A stretch of DNA of 41,439 nt from a virus (IMGVR_UViG_3300037313_000557:1-41439), one strand, 5' to 3'. Positions 7,858 to 20,226 are shown, numbered from the stretch's first letter. Notes: a model not told the origin generated them from the sequence alone. Program-made: numbers and translations.

Positions 7858-8248
7858 TGTTCGCTCCTGGGATGAGGGCAGAGAGGTTGCGGGCAGCGTC
7901 CAACCCACAAGTGCAGGGAGGTGCGCCCAATGCCCAACTGCGTTGATAGATCGCGCATCCGACGCTGTGCGAGGTGAACGGGAGTAGTGCGGCATGTCCC
8001 CGTTCGATCCCCGCGCGCTCACCGGCTGCGAAGGCGGAGAGACGTTGGCGGGCCATTCCCTGGACCCACGGATGGTGGTCGCGATTGCCCGACAGAATAT
8101 CCGCTTCGATTGCTGGCATTAGCGTATGACAGGAGACGACAGCCTCCCGATCGTCCTGCGTCACGCGCAGCCCCGCTTCGTTAGTTGGCATGGTGGGGTC
8201 GGCGCGTTCCACCTCGGTTACTGTCACCGGTAAAGGGCTATCGGTCAT
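7850..8248 (-). CDS. hypothetical protein with QxDR(E/D)A-type domain (paralogous segment in 15818..16474)
   Basis: Start at MTDSPLPV, immediately after repeat copy 1. The segment VTQDDREAVV...ILSGNRDHHPWVQGMARQRL parallels IQADRDAAADW...DLPIAFAKHRI in the other gene. Confidence 0.5.
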   Translation of the reverse strand: MTDSPLPVTVTEVERADPTMPTNEAGLRVTQDDREAVVSCHTLMPAIEADILSGNRDHHPWVQGMARQRLSAFAAGERAGIERGHAALLPFTSHSVGCAIYQRSWALGAPPCTCGLDAARNLSALIPGANND

Positions 8249-9050
8249 TGAGGGTGTCCTGATTGGGGTTGGGCGATGCCTGACGGCCCGCGCTGTCGTG
8301 AACGGAGCCGCAAGCGTCTCCGCCCTTCGGGCTTCCATCGCTATCGCGCCATGCCACCTCGGCCCAAAACCGGGTGCTGAAATGGCCAGTTTTCCTATGG
8401 CACCGATCGCACTCGCAGTAGACATACCGGCCTCTTGGCCCATTGCCTTTCCATGCATCGACGTTACCGCCGCATCGGCAGATTAGATTCTCGCGCGAGG
8501 GATGGTCGCCGGATGGCGGAGACGCGTCGGCGGCATAGGTTCGCCGTTCAACGATATGGCTGATCGTTGTCAGATCCGTTCCGAGCAGATCAGCGATCCC
8601 CCTCCGCGAAATTCCAGCCGCCGCTATGTCGCGAATGATTGCGACCTGCCGATCGGTGAATTTGCTTTTGCAGGATTCAGCGCCGGCACGGTTGGTGCCG
8701 TGTGAAAACTTGTGAGCGGCGTTCTCTTTCGCTGAACACCACTTCAGGTTGTCGACGCGGTTGTTTAGCGGATCGCCATCCAAATGGGCGCCCTGGGCGT
8801 TCGCTGGGCGCGGGCCCGAGAATGCCTCAAGTACGAGCGAATGAACGGAAACAAACCGCCTTTTGTGTCCTACATGGAGACCGACCGTGCGATAACCCCT
8901 CCGCAGCCAGGGGATGAGGACTTGCAGGGTTCGGGCATTTCTAACCCGCCCGATAGACGATACCTCATAGGCACCTTCGTGCCGTGGGACTGCTCGCCAA
9001 CTTTCATCGGTTGGCCCCAGGTCACGCTCACCCACGCGCGCCTCCCTCAT
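8238..9050 (-). CDS. HNH homing-type endonuclease (NUMOD4-like N-terminus, HNH, HTH) fused to a Lar-like zinc-ribbon segment
   Basis: WRAVPRHEGAYEVSSIGRVRN is NUMOD4-like, HLDGDPLNNRVDNLKW is an HNH motif, and ISRRGIADLLGTDLTTISHIV is an HTH. The C-terminal CRCGG-x17-CECDRCH...AEVAWRD matches the Lar restriction-alleviation pattern. The last ~30 codons read through repeat copy 1. Confidence 0.65.
   Translation of the reverse strand: MREARVGERDLGPTDESWRAVPRHEGAYEVSSIGRVRNARTLQVLIPWLRRGYRTVGLHVGHKRRFVSVHSLVLEAFSGPRPANAQGAHLDGDPLNNRVDNLKWCSAKENAAHKFSHGTNRAGAESCKSKFTDRQVAIIRDIAAAGISRRGIADLLGTDLTTISHIVERRTYAADASPPSGDHPSRENLICRCGGNVDAWKGNGPRGRYVYCECDRCHRKTGHFSTRFWAEVAWRDSDGSPKGGDACGSVHDSAGRQASPNPNQDTLNDR
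8249..8335 (-). repeat. structured intercistronic repeat, copy 1
   Basis: The minus-strand core CCCGAAGGGCGGAGACGCTTGCGGCTCCGTTCACGA...CGCCCAAC ends at the ATG of the 7850..8248 gene. Confidence 0.7.
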
Positions 9051-9252
9051 TCGAGGGGTTGGGGAGAGGGCGTCCGTAGTTTGGCGGGTAGCGATCGAGA
9101 ATGGGACGGGCGATGGCAGCCCCGCGCTCCGCGAAGTCGCCTATTGCCTTGGCGCGATCGACGGCGCGGTCATTGAGATATGCCGCGTGCATCTGCTCGA
9201 TCACGCTATGAAGCTGCGAAATGGCCGCAACGAGCCTCTTGCGCTCGCTCAT
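9028..9252 (-). CDS. hypothetical helical protein
   Basis: 74-aa ORF whose ATG lies immediately after repeat copy 2. It overlaps the HNH gene start by 23 nt. Confidence 0.5.
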   Translation of the reverse strand: MSERKRLVAAISQLHSVIEQMHAAYLNDRAVDRAKAIGDFAERGAAIARPILDRYPPNYGRPLPNPSNEGGARG

Positions 9253-9393
9253 TCACACCCTCCCGCATTCAGGGTGTCTGGAATAGGGCTACTGAGGTTG
9301 GGCGTCTCGGCTTCGCCGACCGCGTCACTCGGCAGAGCCGGAGCCGCATGCGCGTCTCCGCCCTTCGGGCGAGTACCGCATGACGCGATCACG
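9253..9393 (-). repeat. structured intercistronic repeat, copy 2
   Basis: Minus strand reads GCGTGATCGCGTCA...CTCGCCCGAAGGGCGGAGACGCGCATGCGGCTCC...GACGCCCAACC...ATG. It spans from the upstream stop codon to the downstream start codon. Confidence 0.75.
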
Positions 9394-9613
9394 CGACGAA
9401 CGCCGGCTGGCCATCGCGGGGCAGCCACGAAATGCCAACCCAGCCGCGCTCCGGCCGATGCGTGACGCCAGCCTTGTCAACGACCCGATGAGTCGTCCCG
9501 CGATCGTCGGTGATGACGTGGAGCCCGGCGGGCTCGGCGATGGTGAACGTGGCGCCGTTCGCAAAGGTGTAGGTGCGCGAAGCTTCTGACGAGATATCGA
9601 TTGCGTTGTTCAT
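9389..9613 (-). CDS. hypothetical protein
   Basis: 74 aa starting at MNNAIDISS, with ATGA overlap to the upstream gene. Its stop TGA lies inside the conserved start of repeat copy 2. Confidence 0.5.
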   Translation of the reverse strand: MNNAIDISSEASRTYTFANGATFTIAEPAGLHVITDDRGTTHRVVDKAGVTHRPERGWVGISWLPRDGQPAFVA

Positions 9614-10095
9614 GCTGCATTCCTTTCGAGGATGATCAGTTTGTTCCACTTCGTGACCCCGCAGCGCCGCCATCCGGCACGCAGAAAACAGAACCCCGGA
9701 TTGCTTGAGCCGATGGCGCGGGGATTGACGTAGGTGTAATGGCGCTCGCCCGGCCAGCGGGCATCCGCAACGGCGTCGGCCTCCGTGATCAGCCACGAAG
9801 AAAGGCCAGCACCCTCATTCCGAAAAATGGCGCAGTTGACGCCTTGCTGCCCATCGCCGCTGATGAACTTGCGCCATACGAACAAAGCGCGCCGACAGGC
9901 TGTTACGAGAACGAGCTTCTCACCGGGGCCGACAAACAGTTTCGGCTCGCGCCCATCCGCATAACGCTTTCGGCTATAGTGTCTGTCGAAGAACTCACGC
10001 GCTTCGTCGTCACCATCCTTGATGGCCCGCCACACAGGAGGGCAAAAAAGGTGCCCTTGCCGTTCAGGCCATGAAACAGATGCAGCGACGGTCAC
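9610..10095 (-). CDS. hypothetical 161-aa protein; possible acyltransferase-like (GNAT/Mom-like?) fold
   Basis: GTG start; this is the first gene downstream of the attP candidate. The pattern HYS...G.NCAIFRNEG..LSS.LI.EA...A...W...R.YTYV.P..I.S.NPG.CF..AGW looks like a conserved enzyme family, but I cannot name it with certainty. Confidence 0.35.
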   Translation of the reverse strand: MTVAASVSWPERQGHLFCPPVWRAIKDGDDEAREFFDRHYSRKRYADGREPKLFVGPGEKLVLVTACRRALFVWRKFISGDGQQGVNCAIFRNEGAGLSSWLITEADAVADARWPGERHYTYVNPRAIGSSNPGFCFLRAGWRRCGVTKWNKLIILERNAA

Positions 10096-10208
10096 TGTGC
10101 CGACTCCTGTGCCCGGATGTTCTTCGCGAACAGGCGGGGAACGCGGTTGCTTCGGCTAGGACTTCTGCGGGTTTGGGAGATTTCTGCGGTGTTGCGGTGT
10201 TCTCTGCT

Positions 10209-10253
10209 AGCGGTTTTCAAGACCGCTGCAATCGACCGCTCTGCCACCTCTCC
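10209..10253 (-). other. tRNA-Ser(UGA) 5' fragment (acceptor 5' strand, D arm, anticodon arm); candidate attP core
   Basis: Minus strand reads GGAGAGG-TG-GCAG-AGCGGTCGA-TTGC-A-GCGGT-CTTGAAA-ACCGC. The D-loop GG and the U33/UGA/A37 loop are canonical. No variable arm, T arm or 3' acceptor follows. Confidence 0.7.
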
Positions 10254-10281
10254 AAACTCTCGGATTTCCGCCGTGAAACGG

Positions 10282-10309
10282 ACTATAGCACATCCAGAAA
10301 CCGCTGCAA
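10282..10309 (-). promoter_or_regulatory. near-consensus sigma70-type promoter TTGCAG-N16-TATAGT, pointing into the tRNA fragment
   Basis: -35 at 10309-10304 and -10 at 10287-10282, read on the minus strand. It lies between the int stop (10331) and the tRNA 5' end (10253). Confidence 0.5.
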
Positions 10310-10330
10310 GTGTGCCGTCGTTTGTGCCGT

Positions 10331-11356
10331 CTACTTTTTGACCGCTTCCGCATTCTCCGGCGTGAGATACGCCAGATATTCCTCCGTCTGCCCGATCGTG
10401 CTGTGCCCCAATAGCTGTTGCAGCGTGTAGATCGACCCACCGTTTTCCAGATAGCGGATGGCGTACTCGTGGCGCAGATCGTGGAAGCGCATGTGCAGTA
10501 ATCGCCGCCCTTCGCGCTGTACCATCTTTTGTGCCCGGTGCCTGATCTCCCGCCACATCTCCGTCACCCGCTTGTACGGGCCGCCGTTGCGCGTCACGAA
10601 CAGATAACCGCACCGATGCTCGGGTTGCCGGTTGACGATCGCCAGGGCCTCGCCAGTGAGCGGCACGACCCGGAAGCGGTGCTTGGTCATCCATAGCTGC
10701 ATCTTGCCCCCACGGGCATCCACAGCCTTCAGGGTGGCCAGTTCGTCCATCCTGGCGCCCGTAAGCAGGGCCAGCCGGCACAAGTCGCCGAATGTTCCGT
10801 GCATCCGGGCAAAGTACGCCTCTATATCCTCCGCTGGTGGACGGATATAGGTGTTGCGCTTTTCCCGACGCGGCTTCTTTGGCAGCAATGAAACTGGGTT
10901 GATCTCCGGCCAGCCGTCCAGTTCTTTCACATGGTCGGCTATTCCCGACACAACGGAGAGGTAGCGGTTGATCGTCGCGGTTCCAGAGCCGGCAGCGCGC
11001 CGAGTCTCGATGAAGCTTTGCAGCGCAACCTTGTCCACCTGATCCCAGAAGTGTTCGCCGAAATAGGCGTCCAGTACGGTGAGCAGCTTGGCATAACCCC
11101 GAAGCGTTTTCGGCTTCCATTCGCCAGCTTCCAGCCACAGCGCCGCTGCTTCCCGAAAGGTATGCCGGATCGTGCCGTGATAGGGTGATCGACCTTTCAG
11201 CCATTGCTCAAGGCGCCTTTCAGCTTCCGCTCGATCGCGAGTTTTAAGGGATTGTCGAAACTCCCGCCCGTTGACGGTGACACGCGCATAGAAAACGCCG
11301 CCTCGTGCGTAGAGGCGATCCGGTTCTCGTTTGCTGCTTCGTTTGCGCGCACCCAT
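10331..11356 (-). CDS. int: tyrosine integrase
   Basis: 341 aa with an N-terminal arm-type domain (LYARGGVFYARVTVNGREFRQSL). The C-terminal catalytic signature is HDLRHEYA...LLGHSTIGQTEEY. Confidence 0.9.
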   Translation of the reverse strand: MGARKRSSKREPDRLYARGGVFYARVTVNGREFRQSLKTRDRAEAERRLEQWLKGRSPYHGTIRHTFREAAALWLEAGEWKPKTLRGYAKLLTVLDAYFGEHFWDQVDKVALQSFIETRRAAGSGTATINRYLSVVSGIADHVKELDGWPEINPVSLLPKKPRREKRNTYIRPPAEDIEAYFARMHGTFGDLCRLALLTGARMDELATLKAVDARGGKMQLWMTKHRFRVVPLTGEALAIVNRQPEHRCGYLFVTRNGGPYKRVTEMWREIRHRAQKMVQREGRRLLHMRFHDLRHEYAIRYLENGGSIYTLQQLLGHSTIGQTEEYLAYLTPENAEAVKK

Positions 11357-11508
11357 GCCCGGAGCCTCATCCTATCAAATGACCAGCACCCACCTAGCTT
11401 GGCGGCGCTCCAAATTTCTCCCCTTGCTGCAAGACTCTGCAAGGTGCGTTCGGTCAACCCCGTAATGAGGCGCGCCTCCTTCACGTTGCAGCGCTCGGCC
11501 TGGGTCAT
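11197..11508 (-). CDS. xis: excisionase / AlpA-type HTH DNA-binding protein
   Basis: VKEARLITGLTERTLQSLAARGEIWSAAKLGGCWSFDRMRLRAWV matches the MerR-like excisionase fold pattern. The ORF tail overlaps int by 160 nt. Confidence 0.65.
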   Translation of the reverse strand: MTQAERCNVKEARLITGLTERTLQSLAARGEIWSAAKLGGCWSFDRMRLRAWVRANEAANENRIASTHEAAFSMRVSPSTGGSFDNPLKLAIERKLKGALSNG

Positions 11509-11702
11509 CCCTGAATGCCTTCCGGCTCATCGGGCATAGGAGCCCAAGCCTTGGGTGAGCAGGGCCATGCACCCGGCGCCGACTGCCAGCCGAACGTGTT
11601 GTTGTAACGACCCGTCACGATCTTGTAGCGGGCCTTCGGGCCGTTCCAGAGCATGACAGTTGTTCCGTCCTTCGGGGCGGAGATCATCGTTCGCCAGTTC
11701 AT
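11505..11702 (-). CDS. hypothetical protein (DUF551-like pattern)
   Basis: 65 aa. WRTMISAPKDGTTVMLW resembles a common small phage protein motif. ATGA overlaps on both sides. Confidence 0.5.
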   Translation of the reverse strand: MNWRTMISAPKDGTTVMLWNGPKARYKIVTGRYNNTFGWQSAPGAWPCSPKAWAPMPDEPEGIQG

Positions 11703-11851
11703 GGCTTATCGTCTCCCTGAATGTCCTTGGGGGGAGGGGGTGTCTCCTGGGCTTGGGCTGCGCGCGCCTTTATGCGGGCCTTCCGCTGGCGCTCTTGCCG
11801 CTCCCAAAAGGTTTCGCGGAACTGATCGTTGAACCTGTGCCAGTCGCTCAC
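11699..11851 (-). CDS. small basic hypothetical protein (50 aa)
   Basis: Hand translation from a GTG (GTGA overlap) gives VSDWHRFNDQFRETFWERQERQRKARIKARAAQAQETPPPPKDIQGDDKP. It ends in an ATGA overlap. Confidence 0.4.
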   Translation of the reverse strand: MSDWHRFNDQFRETFWERQERQRKARIKARAAQAQETPPPPKDIQGDDKP

Positions 11852-12012
11852 AACCCCGCCCTCCGCTTGATCCTCTGTAACCTGGGATATGCTTTTGCTC
11901 GACGGAGCCAGCGTTCATTGGCGAGAGGATCTAGGGCAAGCATCTGCCGGCGTACGGATAGTACATGGGCTTCATGCTCGAAATTGGGGAGGCGGGTGTG
12001 GAGGGCGGTCAT
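11848..12012 (-). CDS. small hypothetical protein (54 aa)
   Basis: Hand translation from an ATG (ATGA overlap with 12009 stop) gives MTALHTRLPNFEHEAHVLSVRRQMLALDPLANERWLRRAKAYPRLQRIKRRAGL. Confidence 0.4.
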   Translation of the reverse strand: MTALHTRLPNFEHEAHVLSVRRQMLALDPLANERWLRRAKAYPRLQRIKRRAGL

Positions 12013-12290
12013 TGCCGCGCCCTCGCTATCTCGGCGTCTTCCTCAGCGTCCATCGCAATACGCATTTCAGCATATTGCTGCGCGCCACTCTTCTCGTAGA
12101 CATAGTGCGGATGCTGCGTAATATCATACCGGAAAAGGTGCTGCATCAGGTGAGCCGCCGTTTCGTTCGCGACTTGATGCGAGACGCCCGCTGCATCCAT
12201 GATCGGCATGGCGATGTTGCAATGCCACGCCCACGCCAGTTCAGGATTGGCGGCCATCTCTGCGATAAGAGATTCAATGCCAGTCGTCAT
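12009..12290 (-). CDS. hypothetical protein
   Basis: ORF 12009..12317. The start is probably at MTTGIESL (12290); composition is realistic. Confidence 0.5.
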   Translation of the reverse strand: MTTGIESLIAEMAANPELAWAWHCNIAMPIMDAAGVSHQVANETAAHLMQHLFRYDITQHPHYVYEKSGAQQYAEMRIAMDAEEDAEIARARQ

Positions 12291-12368
12291 GTCATTTACC
12301 TTTCTGGGCCGGAACACCGGGGGCGATATCCCGGCCCTTGGCGCTAGCGGTATTGCTGCGCTTCGAAG

Positions 12369-12806
12369 TCATGCTGCAAAGCTTTCGATGGCTTCGCGTA
12401 AATCGTTGTCAGCAACAGGCAGCCACCAGCGTTGGACGGCAGCAATCGCCTGTTCGTAGAATGCTTCGAAATCGTCCTGCGCCATGTTCTCGAAAGCGAT
12501 GCTGTCGGGCACGAACACTTCCCGTTCGGCCTTCGGGTGCAGCAGCTTCCATGACCCGTAGCCAAGCACGGCCTTCAGCCCGAGCAATGCGTCATCGGCC
12601 GATGAGAACTCGTCTCGGTTGTCTGCCAGCAATGCCAGGAGCGCGAACAGCTTGCGGTGATGACCGGGATTGCGCGGGCGCCTGCCCTTCAACTCTACGG
12701 TCTTGCCGATCGCGGTCTTTGCGTGGAACTCGCGCGCCGCTGCCGAGACGGGTTGGAACCCCTGAAGCGTCTTGCGGTAGTGCAATGGTGCGAACCGGTC
12801 AGCCAT
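12369..12806 (-). CDS. hypothetical protein of the recombination module (DUF1367-like?)
   Basis: 145 aa with the pattern RNPGHHRKLFALLALL...SIAFENMAQDDFEAFY. It is adjacent to the Ref-like/SSB/annealase genes. Confidence 0.45.
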   Translation of the reverse strand: MADRFAPLHYRKTLQGFQPVSAAAREFHAKTAIGKTVELKGRRPRNPGHHRKLFALLALLADNRDEFSSADDALLGLKAVLGYGSWKLLHPKAEREVFVPDSIAFENMAQDDFEAFYEQAIAAVQRWWLPVADNDLREAIESFAA

Positions 12807-13194
12807 CGTTGCCAGCCTCCATCTTGCCTTTCCACGCGCGGCCCATCGGCGTGCCTTCCAGCCATTCGAGCCAGTAGGCTGTGACTACATCGCGACCGTC
12901 AAAGGCGTATTTCCGTTGAAACTCTGGCCAGCCGAGCCGGTCGGTTTGCTCGGCGTGGGCGCCGTCGCACATCGGCATCGCGGCGGAATCCGAAACCTTC
13001 GTGCCCATGCCCTTGTCGCCCCATGGGTCGAAGTGGCATGCGCGCACCTTGCCCTCGCAGACGTGCGATCGGCTCTGCACCGAGATAAAGCAGGGGCGAC
13101 CGCGCAACCATTTCAGGAACGGCTCGCAACGCTTCCAGCTATCGGCGCGATGGCTGTTGTCGACCCGGCGACGAAAGGCAGCGCGACCAAACAC
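12799..13194 (-). CDS. DUF968 / P1 Ref-like putative HNH-type nuclease
   Basis: Pattern WLRGRPC...C.G.V.ACHF...GDKGMGTKVSDSAAMPMCDGAH. GTG start in a TAGTG overlap with the ssb stop; a TTG alternative lies at 13206. Confidence 0.45.
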   Translation of the reverse strand: MFGRAAFRRRVDNSHRADSWKRCEPFLKWLRGRPCFISVQSRSHVCEGKVRACHFDPWGDKGMGTKVSDSAAMPMCDGAHAEQTDRLGWPEFQRKYAFDGRDVVTAYWLEWLEGTPMGRAWKGKMEAGNDG

Positions 13195-13568
13195 TAGAAA
13201 GGGCAATCGTCGTTGAGTTCGTCGTGCTGTTGCGGACTTCCGCGACCGGCCTCCGATCCGCGATCGGAATTACCCGGCGCCCGGTTCACAAAGTCCAGGT
13301 CATTCACGCGAACGTTAAGCTGGGTCTTTCCTTCGTACTCGCTGACGGAGAATTCACCCGAGGCGAAGACACGGACACCCTTGAGCAGCTTGCCGTTCAG
13401 TGTCTCGGCACGCTTGCCCCAGACGGAGCAGCGAAACCAGTTGGTAGAGGCCCGCTCGCCCCAGCCCTGCTGAACACCGACGTTGAAGGACAACACCTTG
13501 TCGCCTTGCTGGGTGGTGCGAAACTCAGCGTCCCGACCTATGTTGCCCGAAATTGCGATGATCTGCAT
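13194..13568 (-). CDS. ssb: single-stranded DNA-binding protein
   Basis: OB-fold pattern (ISGNIGRDAEFRTT..G..V.SF.V...W...S.NWFRCSVWGKRAE), a Gly/Ser-rich linker and an acidic tail DELNDDCPF. Confidence 0.85.
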   Translation of the reverse strand: MQIIAISGNIGRDAEFRTTQQGDKVLSFNVGVQQGWGERASTNWFRCSVWGKRAETLNGKLLKGVRVFASGEFSVSEYEGKTQLNVRVNDLDFVNRAPGNSDRGSEAGRGSPQQHDELNDDCPF

Positions 13569-13573
13569 GTCTG

Positions 13574-14323
13574 TTATCCTGCGTTGAGATAGGTGGGAGC
13601 GTTGAAGTCGATGCGAAGCCGCGCGACCAATGCCAGCAACGGTTCGTACTCGTCTGGCAGGCTGTCGCCGCCGTGGAGCAGCTGCGGAGCGTCACGCTCT
13701 AGCTGAGCGAACAGTTCGACCGTTTCCTTGCTCGCCATGAGGGCTTCCAGCATGTCCATATCGCCACAGCCGCGAGCATCGCGGTCGAACGCCTTTACAG
13801 CGGTCCACAGCGCCGTTTTGGACGTGTAGGGGCCGTCGAGCTTGACCCGCTTGGCTGGTTGATCGTTGGCCGGCGGGTGGAACTCGCGCTCCATGTCTGC
13901 GACGTATTTGTTGTCATCGAACTTGCCGAGGAACACGTCAGCATTGAAGCCCAGTTGCGATAGGCCCTTGGTAACCGCGTCCGTGGTCGCCTTCTTGGGC
14001 GCATCCTTGTCCACGTTGCCCTTGCGGTCGCGGACGGTCGTGCTGCCGTATATCGGGCCGAACGTGTTTTGCCGCGTACCGTGCCACAGGGTGACAGGCA
14101 CGATGACCAAGCCGTCCTCGAATATCGGGCGATCAGACGTGTAGCCCCAGCCCTCTCCGATCGGGCCGAACACGCGGGTTGCCTCTCGGATCTGATAGTG
14201 GGCGTCGATCGCGGTGAACTTGCGACCGAACTCGACGGGCTTGGTGTGCTTCGGGTCGGTCTTTTCGACCGCTGCCCAAATCCGCATGTTATCGGGCTCG
14301 GGTGTGGCTGCCTTGGTAGCCAT
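13574..14323 (-). CDS. Rad52-like single-strand annealing protein
   Basis: FTAIDAHYQIREATRVFGPIGEGWGY and KKATTDAVTKGLSQLGFNADVFLGKFDDNKY match the Rad52/Sak-type signature (K.A.TDA.K..L...G). Confidence 0.65.
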   Translation of the reverse strand: MATKAATPEPDNMRIWAAVEKTDPKHTKPVEFGRKFTAIDAHYQIREATRVFGPIGEGWGYTSDRPIFEDGLVIVPVTLWHGTRQNTFGPIYGSTTVRDRKGNVDKDAPKKATTDAVTKGLSQLGFNADVFLGKFDDNKYVADMEREFHPPANDQPAKRVKLDGPYTSKTALWTAVKAFDRDARGCGDMDMLEALMASKETVELFAQLERDAPQLLHGGDSLPDEYEPLLALVARLRIDFNAPTYLNAG

Positions 14324-14539
14324 TGTTCAGGACTCCATGGATGGGGAGGGAGAAGAGGGGGTAAGCTCGTCGCGCTCGATCTCTGTCGGATAAGCGCTGT
14401 ACGTCGGGATCGCCTCTGCGGTGACACGAAGCGGCATTCGCCAAGTAAATCCCCGGCATCACCTCCACTCCACCATAAGAAGAACAACGAGACATACCGC
14501 GAGACACGGAATCAGTTCTTTGATCCATGAGCGCATCTC

Positions 14540-15274
14540 TCACCCCTCCCCGCGATGTGGAGCGGTGGGCACGAACGGCGTATCTAATATCTTCTCCATG
14601 CGCTTGGTCGGATCGCTGATTGGGCGCGTATCGGCGGGTTGCTGAGAGAGGGCGGCGGGCAGGACGTTCAACGTCGCCCGGAATTCATCCGCTGCATCCA
14701 GCATGGCTTTGACGCGATGCGATGGCTCTCCGCACGACCAAGCTGAATAGCACTTGTCGAGAAAGCGCTCGCCGACTGCCAGCGCCTCCCTCAACCGATC
14801 GTCCCCACTATCCGAGAGAGGGGGTTGGGAAAGGGCGCGGAACGTCTCGGGGTCGCCTGCCTTCATAGCAGCGCGGATCGCAACGCGAGGATCGTGGGAA
14901 TACTCTTCGGCAATCACCCGCTCGCGCGGCTCGGCCTGCCAGTGCCCGACAACGCGCCACGCAACGTCGACATCATCGCCGCCGGTAGGAACGTCGAAGC
15001 TGCGCAAATCCCAGCATTCGTCGCGGATAGCGTTGAGCAGATCGGTGTCGCTCGGCTCACCCACCCCCGTAGAGGCTGGCTTGGGGGTGTAGGCGATAAT
15101 GTCAGGGCCTCCGCTCGGGCTAGCCCATTCAAGCGGGGGAGTGTACATCTCGCCGTCATCGCAAAGCACCCATCCTCCATCCCAATCATCCGGCGCGCTA
15201 TCGCCGCCATGCCAAGGCACCATGCCCTCAGGGATCGCAGCCGCTTCCTTGCGGTCAGGAATGTCTTTGCTCAC
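14540..15274 (-). CDS. hypothetical acidic protein
   Basis: GTG start in a GTGA overlap with the upstream stop. 244 aa with no recognised motif. The long N-terminal extension in the ORF track is Arg-rich and unlikely to be real. Confidence 0.5.
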   Translation of the reverse strand: MSKDIPDRKEAAAIPEGMVPWHGGDSAPDDWDGGWVLCDDGEMYTPPLEWASPSGGPDIIAYTPKPASTGVGEPSDTDLLNAIRDECWDLRSFDVPTGGDDVDVAWRVVGHWQAEPRERVIAEEYSHDPRVAIRAAMKAGDPETFRALSQPPLSDSGDDRLREALAVGERFLDKCYSAWSCGEPSHRVKAMLDAADEFRATLNVLPAALSQQPADTRPISDPTKRMEKILDTPFVPTAPHRGEG

Positions 15275-15621
15275 TTGTCTTCTCCCTCTTTGAGGGGTGC
15301 GCCGTGAAGGTCGGTCAGAAACGCGCGGCACAGCTGCGCGACAGTTCGGTCTCCGTAACCACGCTGCCATGTGCGAACATGACACCTGCCGCCGGCAACG
15401 GTATCTAGGCGCGTGTAGGTGTCTTCCATTTGAATCGTGACGATGCCACGGAAGTCCACGAAGTCGCCCTGCCACCAGCATCCAACTTCGTTATTGTGCG
15501 TCGACAGGCGCAACATTCCGGCCTCAGGGCAGAAGTCGTAGTCCTGATGCTCATCGACAACGCGGACTGATTGGTTGACGCGGCTCGCAGCAGCAGGCGC
15601 GCGGCCAGACTCGCTTTTCAT
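15271..15621 (-). CDS. hypothetical protein
   Basis: 116-aa ORF coupled on both sides. Confidence 0.5.
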   Translation of the reverse strand: MKSESGRAPAAASRVNQSVRVVDEHQDYDFCPEAGMLRLSTHNNEVGCWWQGDFVDFRGIVTIQMEDTYTRLDTVAGGRCHVRTWQRGYGDRTVAQLCRAFLTDLHGAPLKEGEDK

Positions 15622-15821
15622 TCCCTATTCCCTTCTATGTGATGACGAGCGCGGAGGGCGTTCCCGATCTCGACGCGTGCGTTCCAGACTGCGCAAAGCA
15701 GTTCGACGGTCTCGCGGGCTCCGGCGATTACCCAGCCGCCCGTCGGCCAGACGCCGAACTTAATCGTCTTCGGCCCCGCCGCCCTCTCCAGCCTCTCAGC
15801 TAGTTCAAGTAACCCGGTCAT
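15618..15821 (-). CDS. hypothetical protein
   Basis: 67-aa ORF with ATGA overlaps. Confidence 0.5.
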   Translation of the reverse strand: MTGLLELAERLERAAGPKTIKFGVWPTGGWVIAGARETVELLCAVWNARVEIGNALRARHHIEGNRE

Positions 15822-16474
15822 GGTTGCACCTTGGCGAGGGTCCGCTTGGCTTTACGCAGATCGGCCCACGTGATCTTCGTTGCCGCGATCGTGTCGTCTA
15901 TGTCTTCGTGGTCAGCCGCATTGCTGATCGTGCACGCGTCCGCGAACGGCTCCAACGCCTCCACCAATTCCCTGATTATATCGGAACGAGTGTCGGGGGT
16001 TTTGGCCTTGGCCGACTCTTGCGCCGCCTCCCAAATCCGGTTGTGGTGCTTCGATATGCGAACGCTGATCTCGTTCAGCGGCAAGTCGATATCCATGCAC
16101 CCGCCGCCAGTTGCGTGCGATATGACGCACCGCAGCTTGCTTTTCAGCTCGTCAAATTCGTCGAAACGGGTGTCGGTGCGTTCGATCAGACGAGCTACTT
16201 CTTCGACCTTCGCGGGCCAGTCTCGTCCGCACAGATCATTGACGATACGTTCCGCCACCTTCGCAGCAGCTTCCCGCATTACCGCTTCACCGGTAGAGGG
16301 TGGGGTGTGGGCTATGCGGTGTTTAGCGAAGGCGATCGGCAGATCATGCTCTACGCGGTCGGAGCGGACATCTCCGCAAAAGCCCCAATCGTAGCTCTGC
16401 GTCGACATCCAATCTGCCGCAGCATCACGATCAGCCTGGATCACCAGCACCGCTTCGGTAGCTTGTTCTGTCAT
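15818..16474 (-). CDS. hypothetical protein with QADRDAAA-type N-terminal domain
   Basis: Start at MTEQATEAV (ATGA overlap). IQADRDAAADW...PIAFAKHRIAH parallels the 7850..8248 product. Confidence 0.55.
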   Translation of the reverse strand: MTEQATEAVLVIQADRDAAADWMSTQSYDWGFCGDVRSDRVEHDLPIAFAKHRIAHTPPSTGEAVMREAAAKVAERIVNDLCGRDWPAKVEEVARLIERTDTRFDEFDELKSKLRCVISHATGGGCMDIDLPLNEISVRISKHHNRIWEAAQESAKAKTPDTRSDIIRELVEALEPFADACTISNAADHEDIDDTIAATKITWADLRKAKRTLAKVQP

Positions 16475-16749
16475 GATTGTTCTCCGCGAGCGCGAGCCGT
16501 GCCGACCGCCTCGTAAAGCGACCACGCCACCTTCTTGATTGGCTCTAGCGACATGGCGCGTTCGGCCACGTTGCCGTCAGGGCAACGCAAATCCATGATC
16601 GCCTTGTTTATGTCGGCGAATGAGCCGGACCCTTCGAATGCGGCCGGACGGCTGGTCATTGCGACCATGTAGAGTGCGCCGAGACTGCGCACGGTTGCCT
16701 TGCCAGAAGCGATTTCCGCTTCGATCATTGAAAGTGCATAGTCACTCAC
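16471..16749 (-). CDS. hypothetical protein
   Basis: 92 aa, GTG start in a GTGA overlap. Confidence 0.5.
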   Translation of the reverse strand: MSDYALSMIEAEIASGKATVRSLGALYMVAMTSRPAAFEGSGSFADINKAIMDLRCPDGNVAERAMSLEPIKKVAWSLYEAVGTARARGEQS

Positions 16750-16913
16750 TGCGATTGACCTTTGCTGTTATGCAGCCGCCAGAACCGTGCCCGAGCATCA
16801 TCGAAGCCCTCTCCGGTGAGAGCGGTTGCCGCGAGGTCGTCCCAGGCATTGCTGAGAGCCTTCACGCGGATCACTTCGCGGTGAATGTCTGCTTCCACGC
16901 TCTCTTGAAGCAT
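16746..16913 (-). CDS. hypothetical small protein (55 aa)
   Basis: Start at MLQESVEADI, immediately after repeat copy 3. The upstream part of ORF 16746..17051 is repeat-derived. Confidence 0.45.
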   Translation of the reverse strand: MLQESVEADIHREVIRVKALSNAWDDLAATALTGEGFDDARARFWRLHNSKGQSQ

Positions 16914-17027
16914 GAGGGGTTCTCCGATGGGGTGGTTTGGGCGTCTGCCTTCGGCACCGCGCCACTCGTGAATGGAGCCAGCAAGCTGTCTCCACCCTCC
17001 GGGCGAGTGTCGACTGACGCGATCACG
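16914..17027 (-). repeat. structured intercistronic repeat, copy 3
   Basis: Minus strand reads GCGTGATCGCGTCA...CTCGCCCGGAGGGTGGAGACAGCTTGCTGGCTCCATTCACGA...GACGCCCAAACC...ATG. The RNA ligase stop TGA lies in the conserved 5' end. Confidence 0.75.
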
Positions 17028-17559
17028 CTGCCAAACTCTTCGGCTGCTCATCCTTTTCGAGCGTGCGCTTGAAACCGAAGTTTCCGGCGACGTGGAAAAG
17101 GACGATCCCCTCCGGCTTCATGAACCCAGGTGCCGCAACGCTTCCGCATAACCTGAGGCGCGCCAGCGCTTCTTCTGCAGCGGCAGTGTGAAACGGGCCT
17201 TGGTAAAGTACCGGCACGACGCCACAGCACGCGGGCCGCGCGTCTGACCAACGGGCTGTATTGAACAGCGAAAAGCGCTTGTCTCCGTTCGACAGGCCAT
17301 AGCCGCGCTGGATACCAGAGCCCCACCATTCGCCGAAGTGGCGGCCGGGTCCGAGTTCACGCAATTCCTCTTCGTGAGCGAACGCCCACCGCGCGAAGCC
17401 GTGGTTATCCGCTTCCGGGGTGATCCAGCGCGACCGCGAGCCGACGTACATTTTGCCATCGTCATCGAACGCGATCTGCCCGTTGGTGCCGTCGATCTTC
17501 TCCGTGATGATAATCTCTCGGGCAAGGCGCGGCATCTTTGGAAATTCCAAGAAGTCCAT
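17023..17559 (-). CDS. compact ATP-dependent RNA ligase family protein (nucleotidyltransferase domain only, 178 aa)
   Basis: Motif I TEKIDGTN, motif III-like HFGEWWG, motif IV PEGIVLF and motif V GFKRTLEKD. Start chosen at MDFLEFPK. Confidence 0.7.
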   Translation of the reverse strand: MDFLEFPKMPRLAREIIITEKIDGTNGQIAFDDDGKMYVGSRSRWITPEADNHGFARWAFAHEEELRELGPGRHFGEWWGSGIQRGYGLSNGDKRFSLFNTARWSDARPACCGVVPVLYQGPFHTAAAEEALARLRLCGSVAAPGFMKPEGIVLFHVAGNFGFKRTLEKDEQPKSLAA

Positions 17560-17560
17560 A

Positions 17561-17782
17561 CTATTTCTCCATGCGATAGTGGGAGGCGCCCGGCAGGGCC
17601 GAGACAACTTGTTGGCTCGGGGTCGAAGACCCGCCAGAACGGCGTGAGCAAGGCGAGCGCATCGCCCGCTCTTCCATCATTTCCTCATACCCCTTCCGAG
17701 CAACATTCCCCTGAGATTCCAACCATCTCTGATTAGGACCAGGAGCATTGAGGCTATCGAACAGATGATCGATGAAGGTCAT
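17561..17782 (-). CDS. hypothetical protein
   Basis: 73-aa ORF. The second half is Ser/Arg-rich, so the reading is less certain. Confidence 0.4.
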   Translation of the reverse strand: MTFIDHLFDSLNAPGPNQRWLESQGNVARKGYEEMMEERAMRSPCSRRSGGSSTPSQQVVSALPGASHYRMEK

Positions 17783-18212: not shown

Positions 18213-18457
18213 GATAAATATCCACGGTTGAGCGCCCGATCGGACGCAAAGAAGGGATCGACCGGATCAAGCTTTGCAGCGATCTCAGCCGCCCGCTCGT
18301 TGGCCTGGAAGGCTTCCTCTGTTTCCTGCCAGAGGGTCAGGTCGATGATGGAGAGGCATTCAAGACACGTTCCGTCTTCAGCCATCTCTGACATTGCTGT
18401 GCAGGTAGGGCAGTAACGGAGAGCGTTGTGTGCCGTGATGTGCGCGGGGGCGTTCAT
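18209..18457 (-). CDS. zinc-ribbon small protein
   Basis: CPTC-x12-CLEC. It ends with ALNRGYLS, encoded by the same 17-nt junction repeat. Start at MNAPAH (ATGA overlap). Confidence 0.5.
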   Translation of the reverse strand: MNAPAHITAHNALRYCPTCTAMSEMAEDGTCLECLSIIDLTLWQETEEAFQANERAAEIAAKLDPVDPFFASDRALNRGYLS

Positions 18458-19014
18458 TGCCCGCGAGCCTTTGCGCACACGCGGCTAGCCCGACATCCGC
18501 CACAATCATCGAAATGCGCAAATTCCGGCGCACCTTCGCACCAGCCCTCGCACAATTGATCCGCGTAGGAAGCCAGCGCCTCATACATATCTGGCGCAGC
18601 GGCGATCAGGCGGGCGTCTGGATGGTCTATTTCTCGGATGTCGTATCGGTAAACTGACGCATCGCCGTCAGCTTCCTTAAAGCCCCGGGCAGTGCCATCG
18701 CCGACCGCGAACGAAACCAGCTCAGCGGCGGGCCGCATAATGTTGCCGACGCAGAATGTTGGCTGCGCGCCGTTCATCCCGTAACGGCTGAAACCCATAA
18801 TGTACCGGCGACCGCGATCGGGCGTAGCGAGATAGACGCCGCCGCTGCGATTACCAAACCAAGCCCACGGCCCCGGCGTAAAGCCGCGCGATGGGATTGA
18901 AGCCTCTGGTCGAGACGGCGAAGCTGGCTCGATCGGCGCAGCCGACGAAAGCCCGGTCAGCAACGCCGACGCGCCCTTATCCTGCCCCTCTTCTAGGTGG
19001 GAGTGAGCGGTCAT
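18454..19014 (-). CDS. hypothetical protein
   Basis: ATG in an ATGA overlap. Contains PGPW and LIAAAPDMYEAL, motifs seen in many small phage proteins. Confidence 0.5.
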   Translation of the reverse strand: MTAHSHLEEGQDKGASALLTGLSSAAPIEPASPSRPEASIPSRGFTPGPWAWFGNRSGGVYLATPDRGRRYIMGFSRYGMNGAQPTFCVGNIMRPAAELVSFAVGDGTARGFKEADGDASVYRYDIREIDHPDARLIAAAPDMYEALASYADQLCEGWCEGAPEFAHFDDCGGCRASRVCAKARGQ

Positions 19015-19196
19015 GCCGAAGCCCACAGAGCAGAGCGGCCAGCTTTGGAAACGGGCTCGCCGTCATCGCCGCAGCCATCACCGGAGCAGTCCGGGCATTC
19101 GCCAACGTCCGTCTCAAGGTACGGATCGTCGCATTGCGGATCGTGGCGGAAAAGACGCCCTTCGATGCAGCGTAGATCGCCCTTCACGCGACCCAC
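19011..19196 (-). CDS. Cys-rich small protein (CPDCSGDGCG, DnaJ-like zinc-finger pattern)
   Basis: 61-aa ORF from a GTG; the start is uncertain. Confidence 0.4.
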   Translation of the reverse strand: MGRVKGDLRCIEGRLFRHDPQCDDPYLETDVGECPDCSGDGCGDDGEPVSKAGRSALWASA

Positions 19197-19513: not shown

Positions 19514-20188
19514 CTATTCGGGGCGGTAGCTACCCTTGACGATCGCCATGACGACCGTTTCAACAATCCCATCCTCGCGACTACCTATCTCGATAGGCGC
19601 CTGAAAACCGGGGTTGAAGGAGCGGGGGACAAGCCACTCCTTATCGCCATCGCGGACATACTCTTTGACGGTAGACTCATACTCGCCGTCAACGCGCTGC
19701 CGAACGACGATTACCCTCTGTCCATTCATCGGAACCAAGCCAGTTCCGATCGTGGAGACGCAATCCAGGATAGTGCCCGGAGGGTAAACCATATTCATGC
19801 TCTCGCCATCGACTCGCAAACCGTATCGCGATTCCTTTGGCGCCGAGAAATGATCACCGCCTGTATAGGGCTGCCATTCGCCCTCATCCCACTGCACAGC
19901 TTCTCTCCACACGCCGGCCGCTACAGCCCCCTTCACAAATAATCTGGGTCCATTTAGCGCCGCGCCGTCGAAGTCTGCGCCGATTAACTGCCGCAAGTCT
20001 ATACCCATTCTGCCAGCCATGCTCGCCAAGGCCGATGGATCGGGCACAGATCCTTTTTCCCAACGAGACACGCTACCTTGCGTCACGCCGAATTGCTCAC
20101 CGAACTCTTGCTGGTTGAGCCCGAGCGACTGCCGGAATTTCCGAATTTTCGTTGCGAGGTCATCAACCATGCGTGGCCGGTACAACAT
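19514..20188 (-). CDS. CI-like repressor (XRE HTH plus S24 LexA-type autopeptidase domain)
   Basis: HTH IRKFRQSLGLNQQEFGEQFGVTQGSVSRWEKG. C-terminal RVDGESMNMVYPPGTILD (Ser nucleophile context) with a downstream Lys. Start at 20188 or 20170. Confidence 0.85.
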   Translation of the reverse strand: MLYRPRMVDDLATKIRKFRQSLGLNQQEFGEQFGVTQGSVSRWEKGSVPDPSALASMAGRMGIDLRQLIGADFDGAALNGPRLFVKGAVAAGVWREAVQWDEGEWQPYTGGDHFSAPKESRYGLRVDGESMNMVYPPGTILDCVSTIGTGLVPMNGQRVIVVRQRVDGEYESTVKEYVRDGDKEWLVPRSFNPGFQAPIEIGSREDGIVETVVMAIVKGSYRPE

Positions 20189-20226
20189 GGTCCGTTGTGG
20201 ACCAAACTCGCCGACGCATAATTTGC

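What the first reader, a model, noticed from the sequence alone, without database searches (positions are those of the whole stretch)
8249..17027. Three copies of a 90-140 nt structured intercistronic element in the leftward operon, with a covarying hairpin
**Location.** Copies at 8249-8335, 9253-9393 and 16914-17027 (minus strand) each occupy the gap between one gene's stop and the next gene's ATG. In copies 2 and 3 the upstream stop is the same TGA inside the conserved GCGTGATCGCGTCA.

**Shared core.** The core reads (T)CGCCC-GRA-GGGYGG, then GGAGA-stem-loop-stem-GCTCC, then RTTCACGA..GCGCGG, then a distal (GA)CGCCCAAC box.

**Covariation.** The inner stem of the second hairpin differs between copies while keeping pairing: CGC/GCG in copy 2, CAG/CTG in copy 3, CG/CG with the same CTTG loop in copy 1. 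The first hairpin keeps pairing through a G-C to G-U change in copy 3.

**Evidence against coding.** Spacer lengths between conserved blocks are 28, 35 and 30 nt. These differences are not multiples of three, which argues against a conserved peptide.

**Alternative fold.** The distal CGCCC box could pair with GGGCG instead of the proximal CGCCC, giving two mutually exclusive folds.

**Possible functions.** Candidates include cis-acting antitermination RNA (put- or nut-like), RNase processing or stability elements, translational-coupling regulators, or recombination boundary sequences for module exchange. I do not recognise it as a described element.
Basis: seen in the sequence. Interest (0 to 1): 0.72.

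Follow-up and report, generated by a model that had tools for sequence, protein, structure and literature searches.

The report
Folded element shared by phages and plasmids
The three repeats are real copies of an unannotated, roughly 85-base, tightly folded element that also occurs in thousands of conjugative plasmids (including F, beside its single-stranded-DNA promoters) and in many phages, and that probably works as folded single-stranded DNA rather than as part of the operon's mRNA.

Summary

**Structure.** Each copy folds into two stacked three-way junctions:
- A closing helix P0 pairs GCGNN with NNCGC.
- A roughly 10-bp helix P1 carries a conserved A.G mismatch.
- Hairpins A, B and C follow, with an optional hairpin D.

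Across 84 copies, 94.6% of cells are paired and 25 of 26 pairs show compensatory changes.

**Status.** The element is not in Rfam 15, and no paper I found contains its sequence.

**Distribution.** The family is very large. It occurs in Alphaproteobacteria and in several other phyla. It is in more than 4000 enterobacterial plasmids, including F. There it lies on the transferred (template) strand about 94 nt from Frpo1 and Frpo2.

**Orientation.** In viral contigs the element is sense in 35 cases and antisense in 34, with equal conservation. It often forms inverted pairs around single accessory genes. This argues against a cis-acting mRNA role such as antitermination, processing or translational coupling.

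**Evidence for single-stranded DNA.**
- G.T pairs outnumber A.C by 32 to 7.
- C(GNA)G triloops dominate.
- DNA energy parameters recover the consensus better than RNA parameters (68% against 41%).
- In plasmids the element sits on the T-strand.

The mechanism is not shown. My best guess is a structure-specific signal for host replication or repair factors on exposed ssDNA, which also serves as a recombination joint.

The parts
16938..17022 (-). Copy 3, the best copy. P0 is 17020-17016 (GCGTC) pairing with 16945-16941 (GACGC). P1 is CACTCG/CGAGTG plus G.CG/CGC with an A.G mismatch. Hairpin A is CCC-GGA-GGG. Hairpin B is TGGAGACAG-CTTG-CTGGCTCCA. The linker is TTCA. Hairpin C is GCC-GAA-GGC. It starts directly after the TGA of the RNA-ligase gene.
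   Evidence: Covariance model 85.2 bits, E 1.7e-20. The DNA-parameter MFE equals the consensus fold, z = -2.76.
9299..9388 (-). Copy 2. It has the same architecture, with an extra hairpin D (GGC-TCT-GCC) in place of the TTCA linker. P0 is GCGTC/GACGC. It lies between the stop of ORF 9389..9796 and the ATG at 9252.
   Evidence: Covariance model 50.2 bits, E 3.6e-11. The DNA-parameter MFE equals the consensus, z = -2.75. A near-identical orthologous copy is in L056 (90% over 154 nt).
8270..8349 (-). Copy 1. It belongs to the class with tandem G.A pairs in inner P1 (TGGAAG / CGACA). P0 is GCGAT/ATCGC. It lies inside the 3' end of ORF 8238..9050 and ends 23 nt before the next ATG (8247).
   Evidence: Covariance model 53.0 bits, E 6.5e-12. 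ORF read-through seen. 87.7% identical over 65 nt to Sphingopyxis phage VSN-002.
8486..8533 (+). Degenerate half copy (5' half only: GCGCGAGGGATGGTCGCCGGATGGCGGAGACGCG) on the opposite strand. With copy 1 it forms an inverted pair around the Zn-ribbon-encoding segment 8350-8485.
   Evidence: nhmmer E 3.4e-5. ARAGORN calls a pseudo 'tRNA-???' at 8501-8601 here.
17577..17637 (+). Degenerate copy that keeps hairpins A and B (CCC-GGCA-GGG; CCGAGACAA-CTTG-TTGGCTCGG) but lacks P1. It sits at the 5' end of the RNA-ligase gene and forms an inverted pair with copy 3.
   Evidence: Covariance model 22.2 bits, E 0.0011 with filters off.
18884..18977 (+). Degenerate, fairly complete plus-strand copy inside ORF 18454..19026.
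   Evidence: Covariance model 22.2 bits, E 0.0011. Borderline.
17023..17607 (-). RNA-ligase gene. It is an accessory cassette bracketed by copy 3 (sense, 3' end) and the degenerate copy at 17577-17637 (antisense, 5' end).
   Evidence: Pfam RNA_ligase, E 2.5e-15. Positions.
8238..9050 (-). NUMOD4 + HNH_3 homing-endonuclease-like ORF lying between copies 2 and 1. Its C-terminal third (Zn-ribbon CRCGG...CECDRC, then a tail encoded by copy 1) is separated from the HNH part by the antisense half copy.
   Evidence: Pfam HNH_3, E 1.8e-10; NUMOD4, E 7.4e-7. Translation.

Best explanation
**What it is.** The copies belong to a very large, unannotated family of roughly 80-95-nt elements. Each folds on one specific strand into two stacked three-way junctions:
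- P0 closes the element.
- P1 carries a conserved A.G mismatch.
- Hairpin A is a minihairpin.
- Hairpin B has the near-invariant stem GGAGAC/GGCTCC with a second A.G mismatch.
- Hairpin C is variable.

**Where it sits.** The family marks the borders of accessory-gene cassettes in temperate phages, often as an inverted pair around one gene. In conjugative plasmids it lies on the transferred strand just beyond the single-stranded-DNA promoters.

**How it most likely works (inferred, not shown).** It acts as folded single-stranded DNA whenever its strand is exposed. That happens on T-strand entry in conjugation, and on the lagging-strand template or recombination intermediates in phage. A conserved host replication or repair factor then reads it as a structure-specific signal. 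My best guess is a priming or polymerase/RecA-handling signal of the 'ssi' kind.

**Side effect.** The conserved core gives unrelated mobile elements a common joint at which cassettes recombine.

**In this phage.** The three good copies lie on the coding strand of the leftward operon. With a replication initiator gene at 24.5-25.3 kb, that strand would be the lagging-strand template of a leftward fork. This last point is inference.
For: **Shown: the structure is real**
- 84 copies in 334 kb: 94.6% of cells paired against 70.6% in shuffles; 25 of 26 pairs with double changes; covariation score 0.497 against 0.124 shuffled and 0.03 or less when the partners are slid.
- RNAalifold recovers P0, P1, B and C on an alignment that was not fitted to the structure. 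On that alignment 98.1% of cells pair, with covariation 0.436 against 0.159.

**Shown: the fold is strand-specific**
- G.T/T.G 32 against A.C/C.A 7.
- The sense strand is more stable than its complement in 78 of 84 copies under DNA parameters.

**Shown: no tie to the direction of transcription**
- Sense 35 against antisense 34 in viral contigs, with equal scores.
- An antisense copy in the annotated phage VSN-002.

**Shown: plasmid context**
- 4668 places in complete E. coli genomes, 4611 of them on plasmids.
- 4049 PLSDB plasmids, 3085 of them conjugative.
- In F, the copies at 58090-58174 and 63478-63562 lie on the template strand about 94 nt 3' of Frpo2 and Frpo1/ssiD.
- Same strand relation in three more plasmids.
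- In one alphaproteobacterial genome locus (L134) the element lies antisense-upstream of an ardA-like gene, and another (L129) holds an ssb-like gene nearby (protein names by my own reading of the translations, no family search).

**DNA-like features**
- C(GNA)G triloops close 60% of hairpin A and 37% of hairpin C. GNRA loops are 2% or less and UNCG loops are absent.
- DNA parameters recover 68% of consensus pairs against 41% with RNA parameters, p = 5e-11.
- For copies 2 and 3 the DNA-parameter MFE is exactly the consensus fold. The RNA-parameter MFE is not.

**Cassette bracketing and recombination**
- At least 16 inverted pairs around genes of 140-700 nt.
- A chimeric copy in L080.
Against: - No experiment, and no tool result here, shows a single-stranded DNA state or a binding factor.
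- Tailed phages inject double-stranded DNA, so exposure of the strand in the phage is assumed.
- The energy-model comparison and the loop statistics are indirect.
- The second, less well aligned set shows a weaker G.T excess (17 against 10).
- The experimentally defined Frpo/ssi fragments work without the element. That means the element is not needed for ssDNA promoter activity in vitro.
- Complementary-strand synthesis in F stalls at the Frpo stem, i.e. after passing the element. The element is therefore not the known roadblock.
- The strong sequence conservation of hairpin B is equally compatible with an RNA-protein interaction.
- In bacterial genome loci the orientation is only moderately biased (AA 24, SS 11, AS 14).
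Confidence: 0.4

Rival explanations
1. Cis-acting RNA element of the polycistronic mRNA. Transcribed as part of the leftward operon, it would act as an mRNA stabiliser or processing site, a put-like antiterminator, or a modulator of translational coupling at gene junctions.
For: - In this window all three good copies are sense and sit directly after stop codons.
- Hairpin B often carries the stable G(CUUG)C tetraloop.
- The G.U excess fits RNA as well as DNA.
- Stable structures at the 3' ends of cistrons are a known kind of stabiliser (own knowledge).
Against: - Sense 35 against antisense 34 in viral contigs, with equal conservation.
- All six plasmid copies examined are antisense.
- The VSN-002 best copy is antisense.
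- No terminator-like T-run.
- RNA parameters recover the consensus poorly (41%).
- GNRA and UNCG loops are nearly absent.
Confidence: 0.15
2. Selfish foldback or MITE-like repeat, or a pure module-boundary sequence. It would spread between mobile elements by recombination or an unknown enzyme (possibly the associated HNH endonucleases). It would be kept because it promotes cassette exchange, with no physiological role in the host element.
For: - Found in both orientations and at cassette borders.
- ORFs frequently read through it and gain element-encoded tails.
- Inverted pairs flank single genes, including two HNH genes.
- A chimeric copy in L080.
- 98% identity over 50 nt between elements whose flanks are otherwise unrelated.
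Against: - P0 covaries instead of being a conserved terminal inverted repeat.
- Copy number per replicon is low, 2-7.
- The core is conserved across phyla, and compensatory changes maintain every helix. That implies selection on the fold itself.
- Position and strand beside Frpo are fixed in plasmids.
- Most bracketed genes are not nucleases.
Confidence: 0.22
3. Independently expressed small RNA, for example an anti-defence decoy or regulator. It would be transcribed from its own or a nearby promoter on double-stranded DNA, with the polarity of the folded strand.
For: - Strand-specific fold.
- Lies among anti-defence-type genes in plasmid leading regions.
- In double-stranded form, the -35/-10 arm of Frpo would point towards the element (inference).
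Against: - No conserved sequence upstream of P0.
- No sigma-70-like promoter or intrinsic terminator at the window copies.
- No such RNA is named in the plasmid papers read.
- The loop repertoire is atypical for RNA.
Confidence: 0.12
4. A conserved short peptide or protein tail encoded by the repeat.
For: Open frames cross all three copies, for example ..PKGGDA.. and ..AIEARRAET...
Against: - Indels between conserved blocks are not multiples of three: 28, 35 and 30 nt.
- The distal box is read in different frames in copies 2 and 3.
- Substitutions are compensatory in helices rather than synonymous.
Confidence: 0.01

Closest known systems
Frpo / ssi single-stranded-DNA promoters of conjugative plasmids (F ssiD = Frpo1, Frpo2; ColIb-P9 ssi1-3)
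   Same: Both fold on the transferred strand in the leading region and are strand-specific. The plasmid relatives of the element lie about 94 nt from Frpo1 and Frpo2 in F, inside the same 92%-identical repeat unit.
   Different: - The element has no -35/-10/UP boxes.
- It is about 85 nt and branched, instead of a 300-nt hairpin.
- It is not contained in the published Frpo/ssi sequences.
- It has no sequence similarity to them.
- It also occurs in tailed phages, in both orientations.
Primase/primosome single-strand initiation signals: G4-type and phiX174-type ssi, and RSF1010 ssiA/ssiB (own knowledge)
   Same: Compact multi-hairpin ssDNA structures of about 70-140 nt that act in one orientation. 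GC-rich minihairpins of the d(GCGAAGC) type are known from such origins. RSF1010 carries two such signals on opposite strands, like the inverted pairs here.
   Different: These signals are normally found at origins, not at the borders of many accessory genes.
Integron attC sites
   Same: Strand-specific folded ssDNA sites at the 3' ends of gene cassettes, with the structure maintained by compensatory change.
   Different: The element has no R''/L''-L'/R' boxes (RYYYAAC...GTTRRRY). It has a strongly conserved internal sequence and a branched fold. No integron integrase is nearby, and copies occur in both orientations.
HK022 put and other processive-antitermination RNAs
   Same: Multi-hairpin elements of about 70-90 nt, repeated within early phage operons.
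   Different: The orientation is independent of transcription, the plasmid copies are antisense, and there is no Rfam match.
Small interspersed repeats: REP/BIME, ERIC, Correia, Rickettsia palindromic elements; PeSL boundary repeats of T4-type phages (PMC2839356)
   Same: Intergenic, found in either orientation, sometimes read through by ORFs, and associated with cassette shuffling.
   Different: Those families are species-restricted and high in copy number. This one is low in copy number per replicon, spread across phyla on mobile elements, and has far stronger helix covariation.

Membership tests
Any Rfam 15 family | Covariance-model match at or near the family threshold | tested here: not met
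   - Whole window at gathering thresholds: 0 matches.
- Window 8200-9450 at E up to 10: only chance hits elsewhere.
- F plasmid 57.8-64.2 kb at E up to 1: only sok.
Frpo/ssi ssDNA promoter | Hairpin that reconstitutes -35 and -10 boxes | tested here: not met
   No sigma-70-like site on either strand at the copies. The helices are GC-rich and carry no TTGACA or TATAAT.
Frpo/ssi ssDNA promoter | Sequence homology to the known Frpo/ssi fragments | tested here: not met
   ssiD maps to L242 14004-13657 and 8614-8267, next to but not overlapping the element. The published sequences lack it.
Frpo/ssi ssDNA promoter | Located on the transferred strand of the leading region | tested here: met
   Met for the plasmid relatives only: six of six copies in F, NZ_OW968291, NZ_CP054974 and NZ_CP077292. 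Not applicable to the phage window.
Primosome/primase ssi signal | Orientation-dependent, rifampicin-resistant priming of complementary-strand synthesis on ssDNA | not testable with these tools
   Needs an M13 ori(-) deletion complementation assay or an in vitro SSB + DnaG / PriA assay.
Integron attC | R''-L''...L'-R' boxes with a GTTRRRY core, and an integron integrase | tested here: not met
   The element ends are GCGNN / NNCGC and covary. No integrase-type domain was found among the left-operon proteins scanned.
Intrinsic terminator | GC-rich hairpin followed by a T-run | tested here: not met
   0 terminator-like sites. The 3' flank reads CGCCCAAC.
tRNA / tmRNA | Cloverleaf recognised by ARAGORN | tested here: not met
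   Nothing at the three copies. The only call is an odd 'tRNA-???' with a 4-nt anticodon at 8501-8601, over the degenerate half copy.
Cis-acting mRNA element (put-like, stabiliser, processing site) | Consistent sense orientation relative to the host operon | tested here: not met
   35 sense against 34 antisense with equal scores. The plasmid copies are antisense.
MITE-like transposable repeat | Conserved terminal inverted repeats and target-site duplications | tested here: inconclusive
   The termini (P0) covary instead of being conserved. Target duplications and empty sites were not searched systematically.

The most novel reading that the evidence does not exclude
A new class of cis-acting single-stranded-DNA signal, a conserved 85-nt ssDNA 'aptamer'. 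It would be shared by tailed phages, ICEs and conjugative plasmids across bacterial phyla, and would sit unnoticed beside Frpo1 and Frpo2 of the F plasmid. A universal host factor would read it during DNA entry or replication, for example as a primase/primosome loading site, a barrier to RecA loading that limits SOS, or a decoy for ssDNA-sensing defence. It would double as the joint at which anti-defence and accessory cassettes are exchanged between phages and plasmids.
Probability: 0.3. Interest if true: 0.9.

Novelty: new variant of a known kind. Interest (0 to 1): 0.8.

Why it matters
**If the family acts as folded ssDNA**
- It adds a second conserved cis element to the 'leading region' programme of conjugative plasmids, next to the ssDNA promoters now under active study.
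- It links that programme to the early accessory regions of temperate phages.

**Testability**
- The question becomes directly testable in the best-known plasmid. F carries two copies at 58090-58174 and 63478-63562.
- Assays for conversion timing, zygotic induction and SOS already exist (PMC9849209; bioRxiv 10.64898/2026.01.09.698686).

**If it is instead an RNA**
- It is one of the most abundant unannotated structured RNAs on clinically important resistance plasmids.

**Either way**
- The covariance model gives a marker for cassette borders in mobile elements.
- The shared core gives a plausible physical route for exchanging accessory and anti-defence genes between phages and plasmids.

Tried and rejected
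- **Rfam.** Searches of the window and of the F plasmid gave no family.
- **tRNA/tmRNA.** Nothing at the copies.
- **Coding on the minus strand.** Open frames exist, but the indels break the frame.
- **Coding on the plus strand.** VSN-002 annotates the antisense element as the N-terminus of gene_19 (..VVNGAASVSA..), and the window has a similar plus-strand ORF. The frames diverge between copies, so I rejected this.
- **Promoter or terminator consensus.** None found.
- **Membership of Frpo/ssi.** Rejected.
- **L080 as a deletion derivative of the c2-HNH-c1 region.** Its flanks are not homologous to the window. Only the chimeric nature of its element stands.
- **'Lar-like restriction alleviation' for the Zn-ribbon between copy 1 and the half copy.** This was my own reading. 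Neither Pfam nor PHROGs supports it.
- **Function of the bracketed cassette genes.** Apart from two HNH nucleases and a weak ATP-grasp hit there are no annotations, so the 'anti-defence cargo' idea could not be tested.
- **First GC3-only gene caller.** It was unreliable. I replaced it with a codon-usage caller that reproduces the VSN-002 annotation.
- **Alignment A3.** It contained one sequence I had edited by hand. I discarded it and never used it.
- **MAFFT alignments of many copies (A2, A4).** They misalign hairpin C and the one-base deletion of the G.A class. I therefore built the model from a clean six-sequence seed (A5).
- **First loose viral pattern scan.** About two thirds of its hits were chance and had to be filtered.
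- **Literature searches by sequence and by topic.** None found a description of the element.

Full report
**The window**

The first and last 127 bases are identical, so this is a complete genome of about 41.3 kb. It is a P22-like temperate podovirus:
- Terminase_3, P22 portal, capsid and stabilisation protein on the right arm.
- A CI-type HTH/S24 repressor at 19514-20275.
- A leftward early operon with a Rad52-like annealase, SSB, DUF968, DUF1367, an RNA ligase and a NUMOD4-HNH_3 endonuclease.
- A replication-initiator-like gene (HTH_36/DnaD_N) at 24472-25272 on the right arm.

My codon-usage gene caller reproduces the published annotation of phage VSN-002. It places every gene from about 5.0 to 20.3 kb on the minus strand.

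**Checking the observation**

The three copies are there.
- GGAGAC-N6-10-GGCTCC occurs three times against 0.06 expected.
- The shared TGA in GCGTGATCGCGTCA holds, as do the covarying inner stem of the second hairpin and the spacer lengths of 28, 35 and 30 nt.
- The distal box is read in different frames in copies 2 and 3, so it is not a peptide.
- Copy 1 lies inside the 270-aa HNH ORF, which reads through it.

**The real structure**

A loose pattern scan of viral contigs contained dozens of true relatives.

- **P0** is a closing helix, 5' GCGNN with 3' N'N'CGC. Observed forms include GCGTC/GACGC, GCGAT/ATCGC, GCGCT/AGCGC, GCGCA/TGCGC and GCAAA/TTTGC.
- **P1** is a roughly 10-bp helix with a conserved A.G mismatch, for example GGGATACCCA/TGGGTAGCCC or CACTCG/CGAGTG. 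In one class the inner part is replaced by tandem G.A pairs.
- **Hairpin A** is a minihairpin (CCC-GNA-GGG) inside P1.
- **Hairpin B** has the near-invariant stem CGGAGAC/GGCTCCG with a second A.G mismatch, also inside P1.
- **A TTCA linker** follows, or an extra hairpin D as in copy 2.
- **Hairpin C** lies after P1 and is variable.

I built a covariance model from a clean six-sequence seed. It found 84 copies in 334 kb of window plus viral loci. On that alignment:
- 94.6% of cells pair, against 70.6% in shuffles.
- 25 of 26 pairs show double changes.
- The covariation score is 0.497, against 0.124 shuffled and 0.03 or less with slid partners.

That alignment is fitted to the model, so I repeated the count on the unfitted MAFFT seed. 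It gave 98.1% paired and covariation 0.436 against 0.159. RNAalifold predicts P0, P1, B and C there de novo.

- The T in copy 3's GGGTG pairs with an A at the base of hairpin B, a C-G to T-A change. That pair is CG in 64 copies and UA in 10.
- The distal CGCCC box is the 3' strand of P0. It is not an alternative partner of GGGCG.

**More copies in the window**

With filters off, the model also finds degenerate plus-strand copies at 17577-17637 and 18884-18977. nhmmer finds a half copy at 8486-8533. Two accessory units are therefore bracketed by an inverted pair:
- Copy 3, the RNA-ligase gene, then 17577-17637.
- Copy 1, a Zn-ribbon segment, then 8486-8533.

**Orientation**

The only phage record with nucleotide similarity is Sphingopyxis phage VSN-002. 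There the best copy lies between ninB and gene_19 in the opposite orientation to an all-plus operon.

Across the viral loci, 35 copies are sense and 34 antisense to the surrounding genes, with the same model scores (p = 0.74).

At least 16 times the copies form a divergent inverted pair around a single 140-700-nt gene, with the 5' ends facing inward. This occurs in L001, L021, L023, L028 (twice), L034, L043 (twice), L046, L062, L085, L095, L105, L111, L117 and the window.
- Two of the bracketed genes are HNH nucleases and one is weakly ATP-grasp-like. The rest have no annotation.
- ORFs often run through the element and acquire element-encoded tails.
- L080 carries a chimera: 98% identical to copy 2 over its 5' half and 87% identical to copy 1 over its 3' half, with mismatched P0 and P1. 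That is the expected product of recombination between copies.

An element that is equally frequent and equally conserved in both orientations cannot owe its conservation to a role in the operon's mRNA.

**Strand-specific fold and DNA-like features**

- G.T/T.G pairs outnumber A.C/C.A by 32 to 7. In the second, poorer alignment the ratio is 17 to 10.
- C(GNA)G triloops close 60% of hairpin A and 37% of hairpin C. GNRA loops are 2% or less and UNCG loops are absent.
- From my own knowledge, C(GNA)G triloops are the signature of unusually stable DNA minihairpins of the d(GCGAAGC) type, while structured RNAs favour GNRA and UNCG loops.
- With DNA parameters the MFE of copies 2 and 3 is exactly the comparative structure (z = -2.75 and -2.76), and the complementary strands fold less well. 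With RNA parameters the MFE departs from it.
- Over all 84 copies, DNA parameters recover 68% of consensus pairs against 41% for RNA (p = 5e-11). The sense strand is the more stable one in 78 of 84.

**The family outside phages**

It also appears in records labelled Enterobacterales, Fibrobacter, Terriglobia, Gemmatimonadetes, Myxococcales and Veillonellaceae, with P0 and P1 still covarying. Many of those records are metagenome bins.

The enterobacterial version occurs as follows:
- 4668 times in complete E. coli genomes, 4611 of them on plasmids, a median of two per genome, never annotated.
- In 4049 PLSDB plasmids, 3085 of them conjugative.

It lies in the leading region.
- In F the copies are at 58090-58174 and 63478-63562 on the strand opposite to ssb, psiB and the other leading genes.
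- Each is about 94 nt 3' of Frpo2 and Frpo1/ssiD on that strand. This is the transferred strand that serves as template for zygotic transcription (PMC11541004, PMC9849209).
- The same relation holds in NZ_OW968291 (two copies), NZ_CP054974 and NZ_CP077292.
- Among the alphaproteobacterial genome loci examined, one (L134) has the element antisense-upstream of an ardA-like gene (my own reading of the translation), another (L129) lies in a leading-region-like context with an ssb-like gene nearby, and another (L143) is a prophage.

The published Frpo/ssi sequences do not contain the element. Only one low-confidence 'Frpo*' candidate region happens to end in it. The papers on ssDNA promoters that I read do not describe it. 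Searching the literature for its sequence found nothing.

**How it most likely works**

Shown:
- A strongly selected, strand-specific fold.
- Independence from the direction of transcription in phages.
- A fixed position on the transferred strand beside ssDNA promoters in plasmids.
- Bracketing of accessory cassettes.
- Recombinant copies.

Inferred: the active form is single-stranded DNA. It would be exposed on T-strand entry in conjugation. In the phage it would be exposed on the lagging-strand template or in recombination intermediates. The three good copies would lie on the lagging-strand template of a fork moving left from the replication gene at about 25 kb.

The near-invariant hairpin B stem and the two conserved A.G mismatches suggest recognition by a factor present in all these hosts. 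Candidates are an ssi-type priming or primosome signal, or a barrier to RecA loading next to the primer made at Frpo.

Two published facts limit the options:
- Frpo/ssi fragments work without the element.
- Complementary-strand synthesis in F stalls at the Frpo stem after passing the element.

The element is therefore neither the promoter nor the known roadblock. I give the ssDNA reading a confidence of 0.4. The rivals are a selfish or boundary repeat (0.22), an mRNA element (0.15), an independent small RNA (0.12) and a peptide (0.01).

**Novelty**

I found no name, no Rfam family and no annotation for it, although it sits in the most studied plasmid. I file it as a new variant of a known kind, the folded single-strand signals of mobile elements such as Frpo/ssi, sso and attC. 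It fails the defining tests of each of these that could be run here.

Noticed in passing
window 1-127 and 41313-41439: The two ends of the window are 100% identical over 127 nt. The window is a complete genome with a terminal overlap (assembly circularity or a direct terminal repeat).
   Followed up: no
window 9023-9068; L056 895-940: A 46-nt stretch is 100% identical between otherwise diverged relatives: CTCCCCAACCCCTCGAATGAGGGAGGCGCGCGTGGGTGAGCGTG. It spans the end of one small gene and the RBS and start of the next. The genes on both sides differ, so this is a second kind of module-junction sequence.
   Followed up: partly
window 8238-9050 (-): A NUMOD4-HNH_3 endonuclease ORF continues in frame, without a stop, through the antisense half copy, a Zn-ribbon (CRCGG...CECDRC) and copy 1. 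It may be a fusion created by element insertions. My 'Lar-like' reading of the Zn-ribbon found no support in Pfam or PHROGs.
   Followed up: partly
window 8501-8601 (+): ARAGORN reports an odd 101-nt 'tRNA-???' with a 4-base anticodon. It overlaps the degenerate half copy and is probably an artefact of the element's branched fold.
   Followed up: partly
L056 172-726: In a relative of the window, a different upstream gene (its translation looks DUF2493/SLOG-like by my own reading, no family search) has no stop before the c2-type element. It reads through the element to a stop overlapping the next ATG, giving a 50-aa element-encoded tail.
   Followed up: no
L242 (F plasmid NC_002483) 57807-58163 (-): RefSeq annotates a 'hypothetical protein' that starts inside the element and runs through a polypurine (GAAGAGGAA) tract just 3' of it. 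This is probably a spurious ORF. A purine-rich tract also follows the second F copy.
   Followed up: no
L129, L152, L153, L154, L163, L184, L201 (Sphingomonas spp.): A variant of the element about 115 nt long, with a large hairpin D, is identical with its flanks in the seven loci listed, six of them titled as different Sphingomonas strains or species. The one locus examined (L129) has an ssb-like gene upstream and a gene that looks DUF2493-like to me downstream. This suggests a recently spread conjugative element.
   Followed up: partly
L241 5740-5830: A long perfect inverted repeat (CATGGAGGAAATAAAGAGG...CCCCTTTATTTCCTCCATG) lies between the element and an antirestriction gene in an IncF-like plasmid. 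It is probably one of the recently described class 2 ssDNA promoters.
   Followed up: no
PP496355.1 22056-22103 (Microcystis phage Mvi-Yong1342-1): A cyanophage record matches the core of the element at 81% identity under a 'hypothetical protein'. This hints that the family reaches cyanobacterial phages.
   Followed up: no
L122, L168, L180, L183, L199, L209 (contigs L122-L199 titled Fibrobacter sp. MAG Mx356_bin10; L209 title not shown): At least five contigs of a single MAG (plus a sixth locus, L209, with the same sequence but no title shown) carry a distinct subtype with a TTTTCAAG hairpin B loop and a long hairpin D. The copy number in this genome is unusually high.
   Followed up: no
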